Positions 12,837-62,500 of a DNA stretch of 64,000 nt are shown piece after piece. The number at the start of each line of letters is the position of its first letter. Within the stretch, counting starts at the first letter, position 1. Both the position numbers and the translations under genes were made by a program. The DNA is from Schmidtea nova (Eukaryota), in assembly GCA_044892505.1 (NCBI GenBank), contig CM097883.1, positions 250,604,001 through 250,668,000 of the forward strand. Direction: 5' to 3'. Below the pieces are notes generated by a model. That model made no database searches, was not told where the DNA came from, and worked only from the letters and a program-made list of their open reading frames with translations.

Positions 12837-13455
12837 TCGTTTATATAGTTTTCTTCTTTCACAGGGGAACAGCGTTGTTTTCAGGGGTATCCGGATCCGA
12901 TTTGGATTTTCTAAAATGAAATTTAATTTGAAATCTGAAAATATGGAAAATATTTAGAATTAATAGATAATAATTAAATTAATTTTACTCAATATTTAGG
13001 TAGCTTATATTGATACCGTTGCCAATGCCTCGGTGAAAATTTAAATATAAATTTATTAAAACTTTAAAAATAAAATTCATAAAATTTCCATCAGAATAGC
13101 AAGTTAGACACTAGGTATAGGGGATTAAAAATCTTAGCTCGAATTTTTAGTGAAAGAAAAGGGCTAAGAAAAAATCGAAATTCTGAAGTAAATAAGCATT
13201 TGGACATAGATAAGAAAGAGCTAATACGTGATGATAAAAGATTCTTTCGTTTCGATTCCCGAATTGAGGCTTGATAGGCATACCCATGGAAAACTCGCGA
13301 TCGAATATGTGAGAGCTCCTTAAAGTATTGTAATAACAAATGAACTAATTAAATCTTAGTGTATGATGATAAATGTTGTAATTATTGTGCATTAATCATT
13401 ATCGATATGTATTAAAATACTTGAATACTTTTAGCAATGAACCCAATGCAACAGC

Positions 13456-13923
13456 TTGAGGGAATATACAAGTTATTACTCGAAAATGCAAGGCACAATA
13501 AAATTTCGGGCCCGCTGTCGCGAAATGGAAGCAACATGGTCCGACAAGGAAACAGTAGATCGATTGAAAAAGCAAAATCAACTAATGATGCAACAAGCCG
13601 CCGAAGACGCAATGAGATTGCGGGCGTGTCGTGTCTCAATGCGAGAGCAGGAGCTCGTGAATGAGAAACTAAGGGTAGATAGTGGCCTCATCTCGGCCAT
13701 ACTACCGAAATCTCAGCCTCCACCTCAGGAATTGTTCCCGGTGAGAGTGGAGGAAGAAATCGCAGCAGCAGCAGCTCCGACCAAGCCAAAGCGATGGAGG
13801 CCCAGTAAAGGAGCAAGAGCTAGGAATAAGCGTCGCCAAGAAGCGCGAGTATTAGGCCAATTGGGAGTAGAGGCCTCGAAAATCATTGATTTTAACATTG
13901 ATTTGACCAGTACACACATTTGA
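13456..13923 (+). CDS. W1 orfB: ~155-aa coiled-coil protein with an Arg/Lys-rich patch; true start uncertain
   Basis: Open, GC-richer ORF. A ttttag acceptor at 13434 is followed by ATG 13437 in another frame (possible frameshift); the first in-frame ATG is at 13486. Contains KPKRWRPSKGARARNKRRQ. AATAAA follows the stop. Confidence 0.65.
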   Translation: MREYTSYYSKMQGTIKFRARCREMEATWSDKETVDRLKKQNQLMMQQAAEDAMRLRACRVSMREQELVNEKLRVDSGLISAILPKSQPPPQELFPVRVEEEIAAAAAPTKPKRWRPSKGARARNKRRQEARVLGQLGVEASKIIDFNIDLTSTHI

Positions 13924-14249: not shown

Positions 14250-17200
14250 TTTGAGGCCCTAGGCAAAAATCAATTATTGTGGCCCCTCTAAGATTTTTTT
14301 TTAAATAATAAATAATTTTTTTTTCATGGCTTAGTTTCTAAATTTTGACCAAAGAAAGCCCATTTATAATATTTTTTTTCGTGATTTATTATTTGCAAAA
14401 TTATCAATTAAGGAGTCATAGTTAATTTTTTTGACTAGATCGCTTTCAATTGCCATGATAGCTAAGTGATTTAGTTTTTTTTGGCCAAGTGACGTCCTTA
14501 GGTAGTTTTTGACCCGCTTAAGAATGCTAAATGATCTCTCACCAGACGCATTTGCAATTGGGATTGTTAAAAATTTTTTTAGGATTATTTCAACGTTTGG
14601 AAATGTTGATGATAAACCTTCCATAATTGATGCATACATTTCAGGAAGTGTTAATAATTTTTCCAATTTTACAAAATGAAGGAACTGTTCAACCTCATCT
14701 TTGAATACTAATTGATTTATGTCATCTTTATAGTGTTCAGCTAAATTTGATACACACTGAGCAAATTTTTCTTCAGGCAAATCTAAATCAACAAATATTA
14801 GAAACTTTTCTAATACCTTGTCATAAACTACAGACCTTCTTTTTATTTCAAAGTTAAAAGTATCACAAATTGAGTAAAATGTTTCAACTTTGAATAGTTC
14901 TTTCCCACATAAAATTGTGTCATTATCAGAAGTTTCATCGAATAGTATTTTTCTTTTCCTGTTTCGATTTTTTGCTGTTGAGTATTCTGTACTACCAGAT
15001 AATTCGATTGCTTCTTTTTCCATTTGGTGAAAATATGCATCATTAGTTCGAATACTAAGTATGAATTCTGATAAAGATTTCAATAAATATGTTCCTTTTT
15101 GTAAGTTACATTCTTTGCTTTGTAACGACTTATTGGTGGCATTGATTCTTTGCAATAGCGTATTCCAAAAAATCAATAACAGAGCCGTCTCTAAATCTTC
15201 AAAACTGCTATGTAATTTTTTCGCCTCAATTTTTGCTATGGGTTTTTCAGATGGGTTAATACAAATTTCACCAAGAACAGTTTTTATGGAAAAAATTCAT
15301 TCTTACAGTTAATACAGCTTCAGCTCTAACTGACCATCGAGTGTCGCATATACGTTTTAAACTATGGCTTAATTTTTGATCAGTATTCATTAGCTGATCC
15401 CATCTCTTTGTCGAAGAGGAAAAAAACAAACAAATTTTGAATAAAATCAAAGAATCTAATAGCTTTAGAAAAACATTCTGCTGCTGTATTTCCAACTACA
15501 TTTAAAGAATGTCCTGCGCAAGGTACAAATTCAGCATTTTGCTGTAACATTTAATTTTGGCTTGGAGACCGTTATAAATGCCTGACATGTTCGCAGCATT
15601 ATCATACGTTTGTCCCCGGCAATTATTAATATTCAACCCTAATTCTGACAAGGCGGACAAAATCGTTTTTTCTAAATATGTTGCATCATGATGTTCAATC
15701 GAAATAAAACATATGAACCTTTCTTGAATTTTTTGATCCAGATCTACGTACCTGATAATAATAGTTAACTGGTCAGTATGGCTTGCATCAGGCGTGGAAT
15801 CAACTATAAGAGCAAAATAGTTAGCTTGGTTTATTTCATCAACAATGGATTTTTGTACGGTTTTGCCCATAAGTTCTATAAATTCATCACACGTGCTTTT
15901 AGATAAATAATTAACATGCCCACTTCCGCAATTACTGTATTTTTCTAAGTGAACCTTTAAGAAGTCATCAAATTCAGCCAAATATTCAATACAGCTGAAA
16001 AAATTGCCTCTGGAAGAATTATCATGTCCTCTGAACTCTAAACCCAAACTTCCCAAAAGTTTAACTGTAGCAACGACTCGTTTTAATACCTCTCACCAAT
16101 AAATTGACTCTTTTTCTATTACCTGTAAAAGTTTGGAATCGATGCGACCACTTATTTTAGCACGACGAACATAAGCACACATACAACTTTTATGTTCTTT
16201 CGACTCATCATGTCTTTTCAAAACGTCTACAATATTTTTCCAATCTGAATATCCTGAAACTAGAACATTAGATTTTTTACTAAATAGTTTACAAGCAAAG
16301 CAATAAACAGATTTCGTTGTTTCAGAATAAATCAACCATTCTCTTAGCTCTTGGACTCCGTTTATTTTAGTCGTATAAAAATGTACATCATTTAATTTTC
16401 GGTATATTTGTTGATCATTGTTATCTTTATAACATTTTTTAGAAGACTCTAAATCTCCCACATTTTTGGGTTTTGTACAGATACAATGTTCAATCACATC
16501 ATTAGTAATTATTTTTGGCCATAAACCAATGTCAGTAAAGATAGGATAAGTATTTGTACTTACTACTTCACTCTCAATTTCAACCTCAATGTCATTGGTA
16601 GTGGCAACGCAATTATCACTTGCACCTACTTCTGCACAAAGACTGCTTATCGAAAGATTAACATCGCTATCAGCTATTACTGGTAGTGAAACAGTTTTAT
16701 CTGCAGCCGCAGTACTGGTAGATGGAATATTTTTATCCAAAGACATAAATTTAGCAAGGGAGTTTCTTTGCTTTTCGTTTTCCTTCAATTGAATTTTTTT
16801 CGCAATTGTTTTTGTGCGCCAGACTCGAAAGTTCTTTTCATTTTAACGTATATTTGTCAATATTTTTTTTTTAAATAAAATGGAATAATTGTCGAGTGAA
16901 TTATGAAATATTAAATGACGAAAGCAAGAAGCAACAACGATTGGTTTCGGTAGTTTTAAAAAAACTGTTGATTATTCAGAAAATATCAATCTAAAATCAA
17001 AATTATGCTAATAATCAATACGTACAAATATTTATTTTCAATATTCAAAATCATGCAACGAAAATTTGATGTTAACGTAACAAAATTCAAACAATAAATG
17101 AAATGAAATTGCATATGAAATGCTATGACTATTGTTTGTATTTTTTAAAATAATTTTATTATTTTTCTTTTTAATTTTTCAGAGTTTAAAACCTATTCGT

Positions 17201-17634
17201 GGGGCCTCAAATTCAATTGATAAAATAAAATTAGTAGGCCTTTACAAAATAAAATATATTATATTCAAAAAATAAAATTCAAACCTTGCTTGGATGTTGC
17301 TTTTATCCTATTTGTTATTTTTTCTTATAAATTCTTATAAGTAAAAGAATTTGAACATATTCAAAAAGGAAAAAAGCAACATCCAAGCAATATTTTGTAT
17401 ATCATATATTTTATTTTGTAAAGGCCTACTAATTTTATTTTGTAAATTGAAATTGAGGCCCCAAAAGGTTTTAAACTCTGAAAATTTTAAAACTGTTAAA
17501 GTTTAAAATGTAAAATGCTACGACTATTGTTTTTTTTAAAAAAAAATTATAATTTTTTTTTGTATTTTGGAGGCCCTTATAAATCCGAGGCCCTAGGCAA
17601 ATTCCTAATCTGCCTACAGGTAAATACGCCGCTG
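14250..17634 (-). mobile_element. hAT DNA transposon inserted in the W1 terminal block; left end lost
   Basis: Intact terminus CAGCGGCGTATTT (minus strand, from 17634) and subterminal gaggccctaggcaa repeats at both ends. No matching terminus or TSD on the left. Confidence 0.8.
14364..16841 (-). pseudogene. hAT transposase (ZMYM1-like, TTF-type Zn finger, hATC dimerisation domain), frameshifted
   Basis: MKRTFESGAQK N-terminus; WLIYSETTKSVYCFACKLF; FALIVDSTPDASHTDQLTIIIRYV; CRGQTYDNAANMSG; CDTRWS; GERSFSILKRVKNYLRTSL. Split over at least 4 ORFs. Confidence 0.92.
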
Positions 17635-18184
17635 ATTACCAACGTTACTTAGTGACGGGCAACAAGATGGTTATTACAATGTTTTGTATGTTGAGTTGTT
17701 GATGAGAGCCATGGTAACTTCAAGGTCATATTGACGATCAACAACCCACTAATTAAAACAATAAAATTTAATTTCTATTCTATTTTCATTTCTATCTCTG
17801 TTGTTTTTAGATATTTTAACCGGGATTTCTTCTATAATTTTTAATAAATTATTGTTGGGTCCGCCAAATAGGCTAGAACAACAACAATAGAACGAAAGTT
17901 TAAAATAATAATAAAATAATAAACATAAAAATAGCAATAAAGACAAATTAAAAATAGGAATAAAATAGCAAATAATATTTAATAAGTTTCCAGTAAAAGG
18001 AAATTTTAAAAATAAAACGGTAAATAACAGCAAAGGGGGCCTGAAATAAGAAAATTAAGAATTAAATAAACTAATAGTACAAATAATTAATTAATTACTC
18101 GAAAAACCAGGACCACCCAGCGAGAAACCGGAAAAGGAAATAAAATAATGTTTGGATTTAAATAAAATAATAAAAACACTTTGA

Positions 18185-18245
18185 TGGACGGTCTGATCCT
18201 AATTGGTCAATCCGACCAGCCGGATCAGTATAAATACCGATCCGA
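18185..18245 (+). promoter_or_regulatory. Pol II-type promoter of V (ATTGG/CCAAT box + TATAAATA at 18229-18236)
   Basis: Block conserved in V' at ~32200-32265 (reverse) while flanking sequence diverges. Confidence 0.7.
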
Positions 18246-18527
18246 AAATCACAACTGTTAACTGTTATTTTTAACAAAACTCGTTCACTGACACACACAC
18301 AATTTTTACTTACTTATCGAGCAACCAATTTTTACTCAATTATCAATAATTTCGAGAATCGTTTTTAACCAAATCTTATATTCGAAGAAAAATTCAACCC
18401 AAAACAGGGTACGGAATCGTAACGTTTTATTTTAATTGTATTATAATGTTTTAATGTACCTATGATTTTTATTATTACAATTTTATATCTGATTTTATTT
18501 TTATCATTAATTTAATGCATATAGTTA

Positions 18528-18612
18528 TGCTTCCTAGGCTGCTCACGCGGCAAGGGAGCCCGAGTCGTCGTTGTGGGGCCTCACAGTCTCACGTGGCGGT
18601 TCCACCTTTTTA
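18528..18612 (+). ncRNA. Putative structured RNA element: two hairpins followed by T6
   Basis: GC-rich island conserved with V' 31818-31900; stems retained with compensatory or wobble changes, loops changed. Confidence 0.55.
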
Positions 18613-19323
18613 TGAATTAATAAAACATTTTCAATGATATCATTGACAAGTTTGCGTTAAAAATTTCATAATTCGGTTGCACAGAGGACAGGGCGCGAGA
18701 GATAGCGGGAAAAGATTTGAGGGTTTCCAGAAAGTGTGAAGCCTCCTACGGATGGCAGGTAACCGATGTCCGGTTAATACATTAAGGTTGTTTATTTTTA
18801 AGCCAGGAGATCACATGGGAAGCGAGAAATTTTTAGATTTTCGTTAACAATCGATTTTAGTGAAAAATTTCATAGAGGCCAAAGTCCACAATCAATCTAT
18901 CGACACAATTCAATTAAAATCTAAAATGTAATTATGATTGAATTCCGATCGTATTAGACGGAATTCCAACTAATACTATAAATAACTTTATGCCGATCGC
19001 TGTATATAGCGCGGTAACCCCGAACTTTATTATCCTAAACGTCGTACATGACGCAGGAAGAATTTAAAAATATATTAGTCCGACCGTGGTATATCGCGGC
19101 GAAGAAAAAGAATAGAATATCAATATAAAAAAAATCAACTCGAACAAAGTACAAGGATGAAAAATAAAAATCGAAAAACATGAATATTAGTACAGTTCAA
19201 GTCAATAAATCTTGCACGGAGTAAAACGGGAACGATAGATATCCGACGTGTTATAACTGAGACTAATTTACGGTCCATAATTTCGATTTATAATCTTTAG
19301 AAAATTTTTTCGAGGCAGCACAG

Positions 19324-19824
19324 ATGGCGGTAACAAGCCTAACCCAGATCCTAACCGAGCTCAGAAATTCGATGGACATACCCAAGGAGGGCGAGATGGA
19401 AGACACGCTCAAGGAACTTCCACCTCAAATTCTACGAACCATCAATGCGCAAATGTACAAATGGCGCCAGGGATTCGATAGAAAATGCCCGTTTTCCATC
19501 TGGAAAAAGGGGAGAGATCAGATTCTGTATAGAGGGGCCCCAGATGGCCAATCTCAGATGGCCAATCTCAGATGGCCAATCTCAGATGGCCATTATTCGA
19601 AAAAATTCGGCCAGCTACTGATCCGAATAACTGGCAAGGATAAAAGGGCAGATCAACTAATCTACTGGGGACACATACCGCGAAAGGAACTGCGCAACCT
19701 GAAGCTACAGGAGTTCATTCCTCGAAAGTCCTTCGGAAGGGAAGGCGCAGATGATCAACCTCCGTTTACGTGGGACAGGCTTCGTACAGCCCCAATTAAT
19801 CAGGAATTACATATTCTTTTCTGA
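19324..19824 (+). CDS. V orf1: 166-aa protein of unknown family
   Basis: Open ORF, homologous along its length to V' 30532-31040 (AQMYKWR/AQMFKWR, KCPFSIW/KCPLSIW, WPIS, YSKKFGQL/YSSKFGRL, YWGHIP, PINQELH/PINQGLH). CAG directly precedes the ATG; AATAAA downstream. Confidence 0.85.
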   Translation: MAVTSLTQILTELRNSMDIPKEGEMEDTLKELPPQILRTINAQMYKWRQGFDRKCPFSIWKKGRDQILYRGAPDGQSQMANLRWPISDGHYSKKFGQLLIRITGKDKRADQLIYWGHIPRKELRNLKLQEFIPRKSFGREGADDQPPFTWDRLRTAPINQELHILF

Positions 19825-19987
19825 AAATGACAATTATGTTAATTATATAACAATAAATGTGGTGTTAAATTATAATCTATTTGTTTTCCGTATTGCGTTC
19901 TATATTAATTCACTACAGACTGTTATTAAATTTAAATGATACATCAGCATACGAAAGATGGAACTTTAAAGTTTTCCAATTTTAGAC

Positions 19988-20584
19988 ATGAATTTAGAAG
20001 CCGCCCAAAGAGAGATTGAAAAGATGTGGCGGATCCGGAGAGCCCAGGACAAGGAGTTGGGTCTCCTCAAGGAAAGATTGGCCAAGTCCGAAGCGCAAAC
20101 TGCCTATTTCCGTAAAAGCTGGTTCGCTCCTGCTCGAATGAAGGAGCAGATTGGCAAAACCGAGCGCGCACAACGAACAGCGGACGACTACAAAATGGAA
20201 TGGGAAGCTACGGAAATCGAGCTTCGTAAATGCTTACATTCGGTAACCGCTTCCTACATCGAACAGGAGCTGCGGGATCAAATCCGACCGGTAACTTACC
20301 AAGAATGGACGGCGGAGAAAAAACTGGGAACGTCGATAGGCACAGACGTCGACGGCCTCATCGAAATTAGTAACGAGCAAGAACCATCGATCAATCCTGC
20401 CGCTCAAACTGCCAATACCCATCAGAAACGTAAGCGCATAGGGCAGAAAAGGCGTCGACAAAGAAAGCTGTTCGCTCAACGGATGCAGAACCAAATCGAC
20501 GATCTGCACAAATTAACCGAGAAAGCGCTATTGGACGAAATATTTCCTCCAGCAGGAATTTTTAGTGATTTGATCGAGAAATAA
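19988..20584 (+). CDS. V orf2: 198-aa coiled-coil protein with Arg/Lys-rich patch (KRKRIGQKRRRQRK)
   Basis: Open GC-richer ORF; ttttag acceptor 2 nt before the ATG; AATAAA after the stop; weak similarity to W1 orfB (LRxC..S..EQEL). Confidence 0.75.
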   Translation: MNLEAAQREIEKMWRIRRAQDKELGLLKERLAKSEAQTAYFRKSWFAPARMKEQIGKTERAQRTADDYKMEWEATEIELRKCLHSVTASYIEQELRDQIRPVTYQEWTAEKKLGTSIGTDVDGLIEISNEQEPSINPAAQTANTHQKRKRIGQKRRRQRKLFAQRMQNQIDDLHKLTEKALLDEIFPPAGIFSDLIEK

Positions 20585-21930
20585 ATACAAATTTTGAACG
20601 ATTATCATTCCTATTATTTTCTTCGGTTTAGTTTAATTAATAAAAATAAAGTAAATAAATAATTATGAGAGCACTAGATTAGAAAGTTTCATTCAACGTA
20701 AAAGATAATAAAGAACAATCCTCCGAAATTTTATTGTAAATTACATAGTATGTCATTAAAGCGTAAGTCCTTCAAACGGCCGCAATGAACCCGTAAACAT
20801 AAATGGGGAGTAGTACTAGCAATAGTGCTCACCTGCCCATCATTGTTTAATCACCCTGCGCATCACCAACTTGATTATCCAGGGAAATAATCAAGGGCGC
20901 TTGAGTGTTTAGTTGCACATTTTATGTATGATCATGGATGAGGGATTCCTAGTCATTGTTAGAACATTTTTCATCTAACCCCTCCATGAACCCAGCATTA
21001 TTCTCTTTATTTTGATACTAATTTTATTCTTCAAACATGCTTTTTATTAGCAATGATCTTCCCCATTCAATTCTCATGCGGTCTTTCGTGTGTAAATTGG
21101 ACCTGCATTCAAATTTGTGCTCTCTTTTGAGATGCGTATTTTTCATCGTTTTTCCCTAACTCGAGCGACGTATAAAATGTGGTTAGTATGACTTATATTT
21201 GTGCTTTAATATCCTATTTACTTTGATGCTATTTTCATGTTTAAAACTCTTATGCGTCATCGTGAGCTTTTAATTTAATTTTGAAGTATTAAAACAAAAG
21301 TTGAACCTCACTTCTACCAGCCCAACAATAGTGTTTATGCCGCGGTCTTGCCAATATATTCATCGAGTATGAAAACTATGTTGTGGATGATGTCTTTGTA
21401 GCTAGCTACCCTTGACTAGCCAAGACATGATCGCTATAGACAGCGAAATATTGATGCCCAGATCTAATTGATCTCAACTTTGGGAAACGACCCTTGTGGA
21501 CGCGAGTACTTGCCCAGTGTGTCTTTTAGGCAAAGGCATTTAATCCTCGCTCTTTAGGACTGACAATAATAAAGCACATTTACTTCGCCTTGATAGAATT
21601 TTTATAATAATGATTATTAAAAGTAATAAAAATCCTTAATAATAATTATACCAATTATAATTTATAAGAATTAATAAAAACAAAAAAATTATATTAATAA
21701 ATATAAAAATAATAATACTGAGAAAAAATACCAAATAATAAAAATAATTAATAATAAAAAAGCTTTTAAGAAGTAGTTAATAATAAAAATAATTGTAATA
21801 ATTAATAGTAATAATTATTAGTAATAATAATAAAATTTAATAAAGAAATAAAAATAATTATTAATAAAAATATTAATAATAAATAATATTATCATAATTT
21901 TCTTTTTGTTTCACCTTTGATCTTTTTTAA

Positions 21931-22109
21931 TATTAATACCAATAATTCCCATAATGGTAAGACTATAGATCAAAATTTCTTTAAACAAGTACACAATATT
22001 TCGGGACAGTCTTTACACACTTAATAAAGGCTGTGCCGAAATATTGTGTACTTGTTTAAAGAAATTTTGCTCTATAGTCTTAGCATTATGAGAATTATTG
22101 ATATTAATA
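21931..22109. repeat. Foldback palindrome (family P, MITE-like), ~80-bp arms
   Basis: gactatagatcaaaatttctttaaacaagtacacaatatttcgg ... ccgaaatattgtgtacttgtttaaagaaattttgctctatagtc. Confidence 0.85.
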
Positions 22110-22659
22110 ATAAATAATATACTTAAATACAATTAATAATAATATTATAAAAATAGTTATAAAAAATAATAAAACTTTTAAGAAATATTAATAAAAAAGA
22201 ATTATAATAATTAATAGCATTAATTAAAAAATAATATTAAATAATAAAAATAAAAATTATAAGAATTAAATTGGGGCATTTAAAATGACTTAATCAAAAT
22301 CAAAATGGTGAGTGAAAATTCATTATGTCTTGACCTCGAAAATGTTTTGGTTTTCAAAATCACTTTGATCTTGAAATGACCTTCAATATATTTTGCTTTT
22401 TCAGCTCTTCCCAACCTTCCATTGATCTACTTTTAAAAAATGAAATTTTTAGCCATTCATATGACTATAAAATAATTCGAGGAAAAATGAATAAAAATAA
22501 TATTTTAATGTTTTATTTGTTCATTTAAATAAATTATCACACGATGACAGAATTGAATTGATTACTCTGACCAATGAGGACTACAGAGTGCAAATGCTCA
22601 TGCTTTAATTTCCCATATCGTGTTCCTGTGTTCAACTTCTTATGAATAAACACTGAGAA

Positions 22660-23372
22660 CATTGCACTGCGGATGATTTTAAAAAAGTGGTCCTCCCAGG
22701 ATATCTACAATGAAAGATAATCGCTGTCTTTGTCGACTTTATATACAAGACTCCGTTAGGTATCTTGAAGATTGCAACAACAATAGTCAACTGAGATATT
22801 GTCTTCACTACTGTTCACACGGTTAGAAACAGATTGATCGTCATGGAACTTCATGGCAAAATCTCTCAAAGCAGACCAATAATCAGTGCAGCTAACGTGA
22901 AGCTTGGGTTAGACCGAGATCAGTTATGGTGTTAGGTGGATTCACAAAAGTTGATTTAACAGCATAAAGTAAACTGGCTCATGTTGATGGGAATATAAAT
23001 ACTTCTACTTAAATCGCCCTCCTTCAGTCGCATTTGCTTCCACTGCAACTACTACAATTGGCTATCACATTTCAATAAGATAATTCTCCTGTTCATAAAA
23101 GTCGAATAACTATGCGCTGGCTCCACAATAAGAATATTCCAATTATGGTTTGGCCTCCGCACTCACTCAATCTAAACCCTATTGAAAATAATTGGGCTGA
23201 TATTAAGCAGCAATTGCCGAACCGTGAAATTTATTGGAAACATGACTTGTGGCTGTATGTTCAACAAATTGGATTGAATATCCTACTGACTATTTTACAA
23301 AGTTTGCATACACAATTTCATCACGAATTGCAGCTGTTATTGATGCAAATGGGTCTAATGCACGGTTTTTGA
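22660..23372 (+). pseudogene. Tc1-type transposase relic, internally deleted
   Basis: KSGPPRISTMKDNR; TVRNRL; VMVLGGF; DNSPVHKS; WPPHSLNLNPIENNW (WPPQSPDLNPIENLW motif). Confidence 0.8.
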
Positions 23373-23844
23373 ATCGGTCGCGTTTCATATTCTAGGTCTG
23401 TACTAGGCTGTTTTTTATCATTAATTGTTTCTTATTTGTAATTCATTTGTTGAAAATCCGAGTGAAGACTTTTTACATGTAAATTTTAATATATTGTTGT
23501 TTTTTGCCTGGAAATTGTTAGTTTTATATATAATTTACCTTTTTTACTTTCGGAGAATCTGAGAATTGGCTGTTTTATATGTAAATTTGACTGTGTTGTT
23601 GGTTTAAACCTGAGAATTTTTAAGTTTTACTTTGAATGGACCATTTTTACATTTGACAATCAGAGAGTTGACTCTTACGTGGAAATTGTACTGTTTTAAT
23701 GCTTGACTATGTAATGATTATGTAATATACACACATGGGGTAGTGGTTCAGACTCCTCACGTCCACCTACTACAAAACTTCAAACGCCTTTTTCGTGCCA
23801 AAACCGGCCCGATCGAGTTTTTAGTGAAACAATAGATAGACAGA

Positions 23845-59524: not shown

Positions 59525-62500
59525 AGGGGGTCCCCTTCCGTCCGGGCCGCCATTCTCTTCACGGTCCTGTGGTTCCTCTCAACAATTCCGTTTCCCGATG
59601 GTCGGTAAGCGCATCGAAAAATACGACCAACACCCCACTTTGCACATAATTCCTCTAATTGACGAGACCTAAATGAACTGCGATTATCCATGAGCAACTG
59701 GCACGGAGGTCCGCGTTCTCTGACTATTTGTTCACAGATTCTAGTAATAGTCACAGCATCCTCGTTACAAATCTCTCTCCATATTGCGAATCTACTCGGT
59801 CCGCAGTCGATTCACGTCAAATAACGCTTATTCCGGCAGTGAGTCACTTCTAACGCCAATCTGGTGCAATTACACTTCACCGCCAAATTTCCAAATTTCC
59901 ATCTTACAGGTGCCGGATCTATCGTTCGACACTTAACACAGTTTGATATCACACCTTGTACCGCCCACGAGATACGTTAGGAAGCAAGTTCCTTACGAAA
60001 TACAGAGTTATATCCACTCCAAAGTGATGCGCCTCATGGCACTTCTTATTCTGTCGGATATCGATATAGTAGAACAACATACTTGTTTAACCCATGTAAG
60101 TCAAGCTTTCATAACTCTAGTTAAAACGTCGGCCTTGTTTTTCTCGGTCGGGACAAACTCCACAGCTGTCTTTAAGTTGTATGACAGTTGGAGTTCGTGA
60201 ACAATTTGTAGACGCCTACGAAATAGCATCTCGGAAGATCCGTGAGTTTTTACTCGATGACTATCTGTCAGTAATGACCCCAGCCAACTTTGGACCGTCG
60301 TAGAATCTGATTTCACGATTATCGACGACAGATCCCACTTAATCGCGAGGTTAATTCCTTTAATTACAGCATCGAGTTCAGCCACGTTTATATGCGCTGC
60401 GTCGTCTGTCTTTCTCATCCAAGTGGCATCCTCCACGATCTCTCCGTTGATTTCGAGACAAACTCCAAGAGCCAGATTGCTTGCATCACACCATACAACT
60501 TCATCTTTTGTCGGTGAAACATGCCAAACTCCACGAACTGGGTCATCTTTCTTAACGAGTTCGATAATTTCAGCTATTATCATGGAAGCATAATCTCCAA
60601 TTGTATCTTCCCACGTTGAACCGGTACTCTGGCGCTTAACATAACTACATGCAATCCGCAACCAGTCGGCAACCGGGTAGTGACCGACCAGCTGACCGCA
60701 CAAGGAAAACAGCTCCCTCCTCGTCATCGCTTCGTATGGTCCCATCTCATTGATTACGTTTCCTCTCCTCCAATATCTGCCTTCCATGCATCTAGAGATC
60801 TGTAATCCCAAAACTTTAGAAGTATCGATTTTTTCCAGTTTTTATTGCTAGCCCATATCTTGCCAGATAACGCACAACTTCGTCTAATTGTACTTTTGAC
60901 GTATATTTACAATGATATCGTCAATATAACTGTCGGTTGCCTCTTTAATGTCTGCGTAATCCTAACACTCTTCGCACTATGGCAGACATTATTTTCGGTG
61001 CTACATTGAGGCCGAAACCCAATCTTGTCAAAGCATATACCTTTCTTTTAAACCTGACTTTTTGAAAATTCCACAGATCGGGATTTATATGTATTTGTAG
61101 ATAGGCTTTGCTCAGATCGAGTATCTCGACGTTCTCTCCGAATCTTCGGCAACGCAGTAAAGATTCATCACAAGCTTTATTCTGACCCGTGTGGCTCGTT
61201 ACATATTTATTCAGTTCGCGATAGTCGAGTACTGGTCGTATTTTTCCTTTGTTAGACTGATTAACTGCCATTAATGGTAGTATACCATCAGAGTTTCCTT
61301 CATAAGGCGTTAACAAACTGTTCCTAATCCATTCTGTGATTTCCGTGTCGAATCCATTGCGTAGCTCTCGTTTTTACATGTTTTACCAAGTTCAGGAGGT
61401 TGATTTTTCCATTTCCAGCTCACTGTCCAATTGCCGGAAAGGAAATCGGCTTGAAAGTCTTCATCTCTTATTTCCAGAGACTCGGTATGTCGTTCGTCTG
61501 CCCTCAAGAAATCGGACTTTCTCCCCACAGAGCTGGCCAAAGGAAACGATACCCCTTGCCTTGATATATTCACCCCGCCAAGCATTCCTTTAACATCCAT
61601 TCCCAAAATTACACCAAAATCCCTTGGATGGTTTTCCATCACCAGGCAGAACACTGGCAGACTTGTCTTTCTAATAACAATGTTAACCTCGACGGTTCTC
61701 AAACTCTTGGCCAATGATCCATCAGCCACCAGCACACTCTCGCTCTTCCCATACGGTCCGCTGTCCAACGAGGACAAAATAATAGATTGGGTACAACCTG
61801 AATCTATTACAGCTTTGAAAGTCCTTCCGTTGACAGTTACAACAACAGTTTGCAGTGTCATTATTGCTTTTCCGGAGCGAACACTGGCGCACGTGTTACT
61901 CCGATAGCGTTTCCCGTCTGTTTCTTTGGGCACGATCGCGCGAGGTGAGCTTTATCACCACATATCCAACATTGTTTGTTTTTTCGGAAACATGAATCTT
62001 CATTGTGTCCTTTCTTTCCACAAAACGAACACATTTGGTCATTAGGATTGACAATTATTCTTTCTTTTACTCCCAGCATACAACTTTGCTGAGAAACTGC
62101 ATTACTTATCATAGCTCGAGCTATTTGTACGACCGCATCCATGTCATTGTTTCGATGTTCGCAATAGCCTGTAGTGACTGTGATATTGACGCTGGAAGTC
62201 CAGTAACGAATGAACATCTAATAACGACATCATTGACACCAGATGACTTACCCAGAGATGTTAGTTCGGCCAGATAAACATCGACAGGCTCGTTGCTCCA
62301 TGATCGATTCTTCAATTTCTCAAAGGCAAGAAACATCGACATAAAGAAGGCTCTTTTCATTGCTGCTTCGGTTTTGATGAAACTTCCTCTGACTTCATCG
62401 CTGAGATGTTGATACACCGCATATGCGTCTCCTTTCATCAGTATCGACAGAAACATCACCAGGTTCTCAATCTTTTGCATGAGAGCTATCGTTGGGAGAA

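What the first reader, a model, noticed from the sequence alone, without database searches (positions are those of the whole stretch)
18528..18612. Dumbbell RNA element with covariation and an oligo-T end in V and V'
Seen: hairpin 1 is GCTTCCTAG..CAAGGGAGC (V) versus GCTTCCTCG..CGAGGAAGC (V'), with the loop changing TCAC to GAAC. Hairpin 2 is GTGGGGC/GTCTCAC versus GTGGAGC/GCTTCAC (a G-C to A-U compensatory change), with the loop CTCACA versus CTCGTA. Both end in ACCTTTTT. Established: T-runs terminate Pol III, foamy-virus LTRs encode Pol III dumbbell pri-miRNAs, and adenoviruses encode VA RNAs. Inference: an element-encoded small RNA or structured cis-signal; the stems are short for canonical miRNA hairpins.
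Basis: partly seen in the sequence, partly recalled or inferred. Interest (0 to 1): 0.72.

Follow-up and report, generated by a model that had tools for sequence, protein, structure and literature searches.

The report
Conserved RNA dumbbell in giant retroelement
This is a two-hairpin sequence kept in over a thousand copies of the long terminal repeat of a giant, retrovirus-like jumping gene, and it likely folds as a control signal inside the element's own messenger RNA rather than being made as a separate small RNA.

Summary
V (17853-20997) is a 3.1-kb solo LTR and V' a truncated LTR of a ~30-kb Burro-like Gypsy element. The two-hairpin element has at least 1,541 copies in the genome. It is a conserved island, folds best on the sense strand, and shows two-sided changes at five pairs across four lineages (few independent events). 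The Pol III reading is weakened. There are no canonical A or B boxes. The stems are too short for foamy-type pri-miRNAs. The ACC-T5 end belongs to only two lineages: the other two end in a splice-donor-like GTGAG and carry T4-T5 inside loop 2. The element lies 220-435 nt downstream of a conserved TATA/initiator-like motif. It is kept by short elements that lack RT, and a GT is nearly invariant at its 3' foot. Both LTR ORFs have a YAG just before their ATG. Best reading (0.5): a cis-acting RNA structure at the end of the Pol II leader exon, likely tied to the splice donor. A discrete Pol III-type RNA remains possible (0.22). No RNA data could be obtained.

The parts
17853..20997 (+). V: solo LTR (3,145 bp, TG...CA, 4-bp target duplication TTAT) of a ~30-kb Burro-like Gypsy element
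   Evidence: full-length relatives
18228..18252 (+). TATA box plus initiator-like motif, likely the Pol II promoter of the LTR (inferred)
   Evidence: found 222-435 nt upstream of hairpin 1 in 125 of 145 copies; shared by two otherwise different U3 types
18529..18559 (+). hairpin 1 (31 nt, up to 13 bp, UHAC tetraloop)
18564..18600 (+). hairpin 2 (37 nt, up to 15 bp, one bulge, variable 6-nt loop); ends in a G-GT that is nearly invariant
   Evidence: GT at this column in 145 of 147 copies
18601..18611 (+). class-I tail T-NN-ACC-T5 (class-II copies carry GTGAG(T/C) here instead)
18675..18683 (+). GGTTGCACA motif recurring downstream of the dumbbell, role unknown
   Evidence: 129 of 147 copies within 1 mismatch (no chance control run)
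19321..19824 (+). LTR ORF1 (ATG 19324) with CAG directly before the ATG; no family found
19983..20584 (+). LTR ORF2 (ATG 19988, 198 aa) with TAG 2 nt before the ATG and a conserved Arg/Lys-rich motif; no family found
20794..20849 (+). second conserved hairpin near the LTR end, usually GNRA-capped, with (A/C)ATAAA at its 5' foot; candidate poly(A) hairpin (inferred)
31817..31898 (-). V' copy of the dumbbell (type B)
30565..32598 (-). V': 3'-truncated LTR of the same family (homology ends after ORF1; no ORF2, no LTR end)

Best explanation
The element is a conserved two-hairpin sequence in the LTR of a Burro-like giant Gypsy retroelement, and it likely works as a cis-acting RNA structure at the 3' end of the element's predicted Pol II leader exon, where it would hold the likely major splice donor in the foot of hairpin 2. 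Shown: LTR location and sense orientation, conservation, pairing-preserving changes, a TATA/initiator-like motif upstream, a GT at one fixed column, a YAG before the ATG of both LTR ORFs, and retention in short elements without RT. Inferred: transcription from that TATA; use of the GT as a donor (good consensus in types C and D, weak and followed by a U-run in types A and B); control of spliced versus full-length RNA or of 5'-LTR polyadenylation; and binding by the Arg-rich ORF2 protein.
For: Orientation is fixed by a primer-binding site after the LTR end in 7 paired elements. The TATA+initiator-like motif lies 222-435 nt upstream in 125 of 145 copies. The sense strand folds better in 146 of 147 copies, with many G-U pairs. 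Two-sided changes occur at 5 pairs. Minor pair types shared by 4 or more copies are canonical in 23 of 39 cases against 10 of 41 for single-copy types (Fisher p 0.003, not corrected for relatedness). GT stands at one column in 145 of 147 copies; GTRAG in 52 of 53 class-II copies and in 15 of 18 further ones, with divergence right after it. YAG lies within 0-2 nt of the ATG in 93 of 96 ORF2 and 61 of 82 ORF1 copies against 50 of 356 background ATGs, so these ORFs look built to be reached by splicing. A family with a 1,739-bp LTR, another U3, no ORF1/ORF2 and no RT keeps the dumbbell. All 11 of 11 LTRs picked by their 3' end alone that still held the promoter part also held it. Precedent: a splice donor upstream of the poly(A) signal, gated by RNA structure, in foamy virus LTRs (PMC3694450, abstract).
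Against: No RNA evidence of any kind: start site, splice junctions and 3' ends are untested. In class I (94 of 147 copies, including V and V') the GT context is a poor donor (GTTNNA, 0 of 94 GTRAG) and no other donor-like site is shared by most copies. The GT could be conserved for pairing alone. The near-invariant T5 of class I is not explained by splicing except by analogy. The acceptors could be served by host trans-splicing (recalled for planarians, not checked). Several pairs are broken lineage-wide (3-29 in D, 8-24 in A, 10-23 in B, three outer pairs of hairpin 2 in C). Covariation rests on about four lineages; pairs with a two-sided change did not beat shuffles (75 and 64 of 500).
Confidence: 0.5

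Rival explanations
1. A discrete Pol III-type small RNA of about 80-95 nt (VA/EBER-like decoy or tRNA-derived), starting at the purine of hairpin 1 and ending in the T-run.
For: T4 or more lies within 30 nt of hairpin 2 in A 47/49, B 44/45, C 27/30 and D 20/23; in A and B at exactly 6 nt, with conservation ending there. Half A-boxes are present (GYNNANNNGG in 89 of 94 class I, TRGYNNA in 49 of 53 class II) and GGTTCRA in 12 of 49 type A. Pol III-promoter sequences in LTRs are known (Cassandra, Helenus, Ajax; PMC10886601, passages).
Against: Canonical A-box in 2 of 147 and B-box in 2 of 147. T5 or more inside the dumbbell in 21 of 23 type D, T4 in 22 of 30 type C; T4 to T6 terminates Pol III depending on species (PMC5356446, passages; the host's threshold is unknown). 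T4 distance is 8-118 nt in further class-II copies, and the surroundings are T-rich (52-69% of upstream 30-nt windows hold T4). No tRNA call in 8 loci, no Rfam match.
Confidence: 0.22
2. A signal used at the DNA level or during reverse transcription (factor sites, or a hairpin in single-stranded DNA), with RNA folding incidental.
For: Much of hairpin 1 is conserved in sequence rather than by covariation. A TATA-like AT stretch abuts it, and other short conserved motifs surround it.
Against: The stems depend on G-U pairs, fold better on one strand in 146 of 147 copies (partly a matter of G+T content), and loop 2 varies freely while the stems keep pairing.
Confidence: 0.1
3. An element-encoded spliced-leader-like RNA: the dumbbell ends in a donor followed by a U-rich Sm-like site and is trans-spliced onto the acceptors before the tandem accessory ORFs.
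For: Class II ends ATG|GTGAG followed by a U-rich stretch, in type D often ATTTTTG. Acceptor-like YAG stands before the ATG of both LTR ORFs and of 2 of 3 internal accessory ORFs looked at. That flatworm leaders end in AUG is recalled; the papers were not held.
Against: Class I has GCG|GTT and no AU5G. The U-run distance varies. No separate promoter at the 5' end of the dumbbell was found. Cis-splicing explains the same signals more simply. No Rfam SL match.
Confidence: 0.06
4. A foamy-virus-type dumbbell pri-miRNA.
For: Two hairpins in a retroelement LTR with a downstream T-run; the first 7 nt after the start of hairpin 1 are well conserved.
Against: Hairpins are 31 and 37 nt and span 69-72 nt together against 111-128 nt for foamy dumbbells (PMC6950176, passages). 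Arms of 13-16 nt cannot yield ~22-nt miRNAs (established knowledge). The arms of hairpin 2 differ between lineages.
Confidence: 0.04

Closest known systems
Burro giant Gypsy retroelements of planarians (host element)
   Same: About 30 kb, one very long polyprotein with CCHC Gag, fusion glycoprotein in frame before PR-RT-RH-IN, ankyrin repeats, a MATH/TRAF protein (PMC6431247 section 7).
   Different: MATH/TRAF lies in a separate downstream ORF; BIR, BCL2 and dUTPase were not found with Pfam at E 0.01; identity to named Burro families was not tested. LTR ORFs and LTR RNA structures are not mentioned in the section read.
Foamy virus R-region major splice donor gated by RNA structure; HIV-1 TAR and poly(A) hairpins
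   Same: Structured LTR leader downstream of the promoter, donor-like GT upstream of a candidate poly(A) hairpin, an element-encoded Arg-rich protein, and accessory ORFs with acceptors (PMC3694450 abstract; PMC2645353 search listing).
   Different: No sequence similarity is claimed. The host is a Gypsy element. The predicted repeated region would be about 0.9-2.5 kb and hold two ORFs. The donor is weak in class I. No binding or splicing was shown.
Foamy virus Pol III dumbbell pri-miRNA
   Same: Two hairpins in an LTR; T-run after them in class I.
   Different: Much shorter; no canonical A/B boxes; internal T-runs in class II; lies downstream of the likely Pol II start rather than in U3 (inferred).
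TRIMp3 elements (Cassandra, Helenus, Ajax)
   Same: Small-RNA-like structured block inside an LTR, also carried by non-autonomous elements.
   Different: No tRNA or 5S match; boxes only half present; the carrier is a 30-kb autonomous family, not a TRIM.

Membership tests
Burro-like Gypsy element (carrier) | Total length about 30 kb with long LTRs | tested here: met
   LTR pairs 26.5-27.1 kb apart plus 3.1-3.2-kb LTRs, 99.66-100% identical in 4 pairs
Burro-like Gypsy element (carrier) | Single ~5,000-aa polyprotein, Gag CCHC, env-like fusion domain in frame before pol | tested here: met
   open frames of about 5,650 aa in many copies; Pfam domains in one element
Burro-like Gypsy element (carrier) | Extra domains MATH/TRAF, ankyrin, BIR, BCL2, dUTPase | tested here: inconclusive
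   MATH/TRAF and ankyrin found; BIR, BCL2 and dUTPase not found by Pfam at E 0.01
Burro-like Gypsy element (carrier) | Sequence relationship to named Burro/GYPSM1 families | not testable with these tools
   original paper not held; 6 homologs of the fusion domain carry no names
Foamy-type Pol III dumbbell pri-miRNA | 111-128 nt with two miRNA-length hairpins | tested here: not met
   69-72 nt; hairpins 31 and 37 nt (PMC6950176)
Foamy-type Pol III dumbbell pri-miRNA | Pol III terminator at the 3' base and none inside | tested here: inconclusive
   met in types A and B; variable distance and internal T4-T5 in C and D
Foamy-type Pol III dumbbell pri-miRNA | A/B boxes or an upstream TATA suited to Pol III | tested here: not met
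   canonical boxes in 2 and 2 of 147; half boxes only; the TATA-like stretch abuts the hairpin instead of lying 25-30 nt upstream
Foamy-type Pol III dumbbell pri-miRNA | Discrete transcript and ~22-nt products | not testable with these tools
   no RNA run on record
Retroviral-type leader cis-element with major splice donor | Sense strand, downstream of the Pol II start | tested here: inconclusive
   sense shown; TATA/initiator-like motif upstream in 125 of 145; start site not mapped
Retroviral-type leader cis-element with major splice donor | Donor consensus at a fixed place and downstream acceptors | tested here: inconclusive
   met in class II (52 of 53), GT only in class I (0 of 94 GTRAG); acceptors before ORF1 and ORF2
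Retroviral-type leader cis-element with major splice donor | Kept by non-autonomous derivatives | tested here: met
   short-LTR family without ORF1/ORF2 and RT
Retroviral-type leader cis-element with major splice donor | Demonstrated effect on splicing, polyadenylation or packaging | not testable with these tools
   needs RNA data or experiment
TRIMp3 (tRNA/5S-derived LTR block) | tRNA- or 5S-derived sequence with conserved boxes | tested here: not met
Known Rfam families (ribozymes, Y/sbRNA, SL, snRNA) | Match to a covariance model | tested here: not met
   no hit over the dumbbell at E 10 in window 17500-33000 or at E 5 in 5 loci of all four types

The most novel reading that the evidence does not exclude
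Burro-like Gypsy elements run a complex-retrovirus-style circuit entirely from the LTR: the Arg-rich ORF2 protein binds the dumbbell like Tat on TAR or Rev on the RRE and switches use of the donor at its foot, which feeds an operon-like row of accessory ORFs; over a thousand LTR copies, many of them solo, would then be self-contained regulatory units in the host.
Probability: 0.15. Interest if true: 0.82.

Novelty: new variant of a known kind. Interest (0 to 1): 0.52.

Why it matters
Burro-type elements are reported as the most active transposons in planarian stem cells (PMC6884822, passage), yet I found no description of their LTR anatomy or RNA signals in the held library (searches; the original paper and Repbase were not available). 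A conserved leader structure with a donor, acceptors before the accessory ORFs and an Arg-rich LTR protein would give a Gypsy element the regulatory layout of a complex retrovirus. It is testable at once with total-RNA, long-read and small-RNA data. If the Pol III reading held instead, it would be an invertebrate parallel to foamy and adenoviral small RNAs.

Tried and rejected
Expression: no RNA holder listed. Four runs of unrecorded kind, held as contigs, were laid on 18521-19095. They cover it, with summed depth highest over the dumbbell, but contig depth cannot rank parts and that stretch is shared by the most copies; the three joints seen were not GT..AG. None of this is used as evidence. 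Rfam and ARAGORN: nothing. The metagenome scan gave 2 pattern matches, both chance by model score and context. ORF1 and ORF2: no Pfam family, no homolog (101 candidates, none at E 0.001, near lengths only), Atlas hits under 0.9. The ORF at 13441-13923 is not alignable to ORF2. A 3' splice site just before hairpin 1 was rejected because most class-II copies have ATAA, not ATAG. A second TATA at 18999 was rejected because it is one of several repeated palindromic motifs and was not found in the 5 type-D LTRs where both dumbbell and 3' block were located. Kissing-loop dimerisation was rejected because the loops are not self-complementary and loop 2 varies. A poly(A) signal at the dumbbell was rejected (AATAAA/ATTAAA nearby in 40 of 147). 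A Y/sbRNA-like GUG-CAC stem is a recalled resemblance only. Earlier findings of this scan: none. No formal R-scape test was available.

Full report
1. Observation. Both fold into two hairpins on that strand (z -2.2 and -3.2; antisense -0.05 and -1.9). The GAAC loop of V' occurs in 1 of 45 type-B copies and is decay.

2. What carries it. V is 3,145 bp, starts TGTTGGG, ends CA and has a TTAT target duplication; 19 of 22 stretches examined had both ends and all 19 show a 4-bp duplication. The LTR end has 804 exact matches in G000 (control 0). Pairs in the same orientation lie 26.5-27.1 kb apart; in 7 such elements the first LTR is followed by a primer-binding site (tRNA-Pro type, label recalled), which makes the dumbbell strand the sense strand. 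Four LTR pairs are 99.66-100% identical. One element gave zf-CCHC, a viral fusion glycoprotein, protease, RT, RNase H, integrase and ankyrin in one long frame, plus a MATH/TRAF ORF. This matches the description of planarian Burro elements (PMC6431247, section 7 read), so the host is likely a planarian (inference). V' is a truncated LTR of the same family.

3. Conservation. Against 7 other subfamily copies the dumbbell is 89-96% identical to V while the whole LTR is 70-76%; the first 400 and last 250 nt are similar islands. Of 20 LTRs picked by their 3' end alone, 11 held the promoter part within the 4 kb fetched and all 11 held a dumbbell; the other 9 were deleted or interrupted there. That sample revealed divergent types, which I expanded. 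A hairpin-1 pattern has 1,541 exact matches and the class-I 3' end 1,173 (controls 0).

4. Covariation. I aligned 147 copies by anchors (9 dropped for indels) and sorted them into my own types A 49, B 45, C 30, D 23; most were found by similarity to a dumbbell, and they are related, so they stand for about four lineages. Two-sided changes: hairpin 1 pairs 1-31 (GC/AU) and 12-21 (UG/AU); hairpin 2 pairs 15-26, 16-25 and 8-32 (the last broken in C). Four of 28 structure pairs against 27 of 2,183 other column pairs are at least 90% canonical with a two-sided change. Minor pair types shared by 4 or more copies are canonical in 23 of 39 cases, single-copy ones in 10 of 41. Against this, some pairs are broken in whole lineages, and the count of pairs with two-sided change was matched by 75 and 64 of 500 shuffles. 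Sense folding is better in 146 of 147. Verdict: a real, selected, strand-specific structure, with modest statistical power.

5. Is it a Pol III RNA? For: T4 or more within 30 nt in 138 of 147 copies, at exactly 6 nt in A and B, and half A-boxes. Against: canonical A and B boxes in 2 and 2 of 147; T5 inside loop 2 in 21 of 23 type D and T4 in 22 of 30 type C, where T4-T6 ends Pol III transcripts depending on species (PMC5356446, passages); first T4 8-118 nt away in 15 further class-II copies. The hairpins span 69-72 nt against 111-128 nt for foamy dumbbells (PMC6950176, passages; PMC3993851, passages, for the promoter and terminator needs). No Rfam or tRNA match.

6. Is it a Pol II leader signal? 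A TATA plus initiator-like motif lies 222-435 nt upstream in 125 of 145 copies and is shared by two different U3 types. The GT at the foot of hairpin 2 is present in 145 of 147; in class II (C, D) it reads GTRAG in 52 of 53 and 15 of 18 more, and sequences diverge right after it. In class I (A, B) it is a weak GTTNNA followed by ACC-T5, and no other donor-like site is shared by most copies. Both LTR ORFs have YAG within 2 nt of the ATG (ORF2 93 of 96, 5 without ATG not counted; ORF1 61 of 82, 16 not counted; background 50 of 356), so they look built to be spliced onto. A family with a 1,739-bp LTR that lacks ORF1, ORF2 and RT keeps the dumbbell (RT searched in 5 of the 6 stretches), as expected of a cis-signal. 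ORF2 has a conserved Arg/Lys-rich motif. Foamy viruses offer the nearest mechanism: a donor upstream of the poly(A) signal whose access is set by RNA structure (PMC3694450, abstract only).

7. Limits. No RNA run is on record for this sequence and the contigs laid cannot show starts, ends or levels, so every step about transcription, splicing and binding is inferred. The original Burro paper, its supplements and flatworm spliced-leader papers were not held; they could bear on novelty and on the trans-splicing rival. Searches for prior description: (listings seen; passages read in PMC8532177, PMC10886601, PMC6884822, PMC11410931; abstract of PMC8579622). None of what I saw described this element. 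The UNAC-type loop label comes from a search listing only.

8. Verdict. A genuine, previously unlisted structured element in the LTR of a Burro-like Gypsy family. Most likely a cis-acting leader structure tied to splicing (0.5); a discrete Pol III-type RNA 0.22; a DNA-level signal 0.1; leader-like trans-splicing RNA 0.06; pri-miRNA 0.04; the rest unassigned. Novelty: new variant of a known kind. Interest 0.52.

Noticed in passing
window 20794-20849 and L088, L100, L107, L200, L205, L209, L212, L216: A second long hairpin near the LTR end, usually GNRA-capped, with paired changes and (A/C)ATAAA at its foot, shared by long and short LTR types; it resembles a poly(A) hairpin.
   Followed up: partly
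window 20423-20470 (ORF2): The motif KRKRIG(Q/S)KRRRQRKLF is almost unchanged in ORF2 copies only 51-82% identical overall; it could be a nuclear signal or an RNA-binding motif. The likeness to Tat/Rev is recalled.
   Followed up: partly
L090 3851-7047, L093, L097: Three accessory ORFs follow the polyprotein (MATH/TRAF; coiled-coil; unknown); two have a TAG 2-3 nt before the ATG, an operon-like layout.
   Followed up: partly
L100-L105, L200, L205, L209, L211: A short-LTR family (about 1.75 kb, different U3, about 13-14 kb elements without RT in the stretches searched) carries either a class-I or a class-II dumbbell, and the long LTR also carries both classes, so the block has been exchanged between frameworks.
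   Followed up: partly
window 18999-19100: Two to three repeated palindromic CC...GG motifs upstream of ORF1, conserved across subfamilies; possible factor-binding sites.
   Followed up: no
window 13441-13923: A 160-aa ORF with an Arg-rich stretch followed by AATAAA, similar in make-up to ORF2 but not alignable; perhaps from another LTR family.
   Followed up: partly
window 25973-29704: Broken protein-primed-type DNA polymerase B with an endonuclease VII domain, in four pieces.
   Followed up: no
window 14364-16842 (-): Broken hAT transposase (DUF4371, dimerisation domain).
   Followed up: no
window 60101-61951 (-): Fragments of another retroelement (protease, RT, RNase H, DUF7047).
   Followed up: no
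window 23815-24860: Tandem array with a 144/288-bp period, also present in locus L040.
   Followed up: no
window 21920-22120: Near-perfect inverted repeat that scores weakly as mir-31 (35.8 bits, cutoff 51); repeated in the window, probably a MITE.
   Followed up: no
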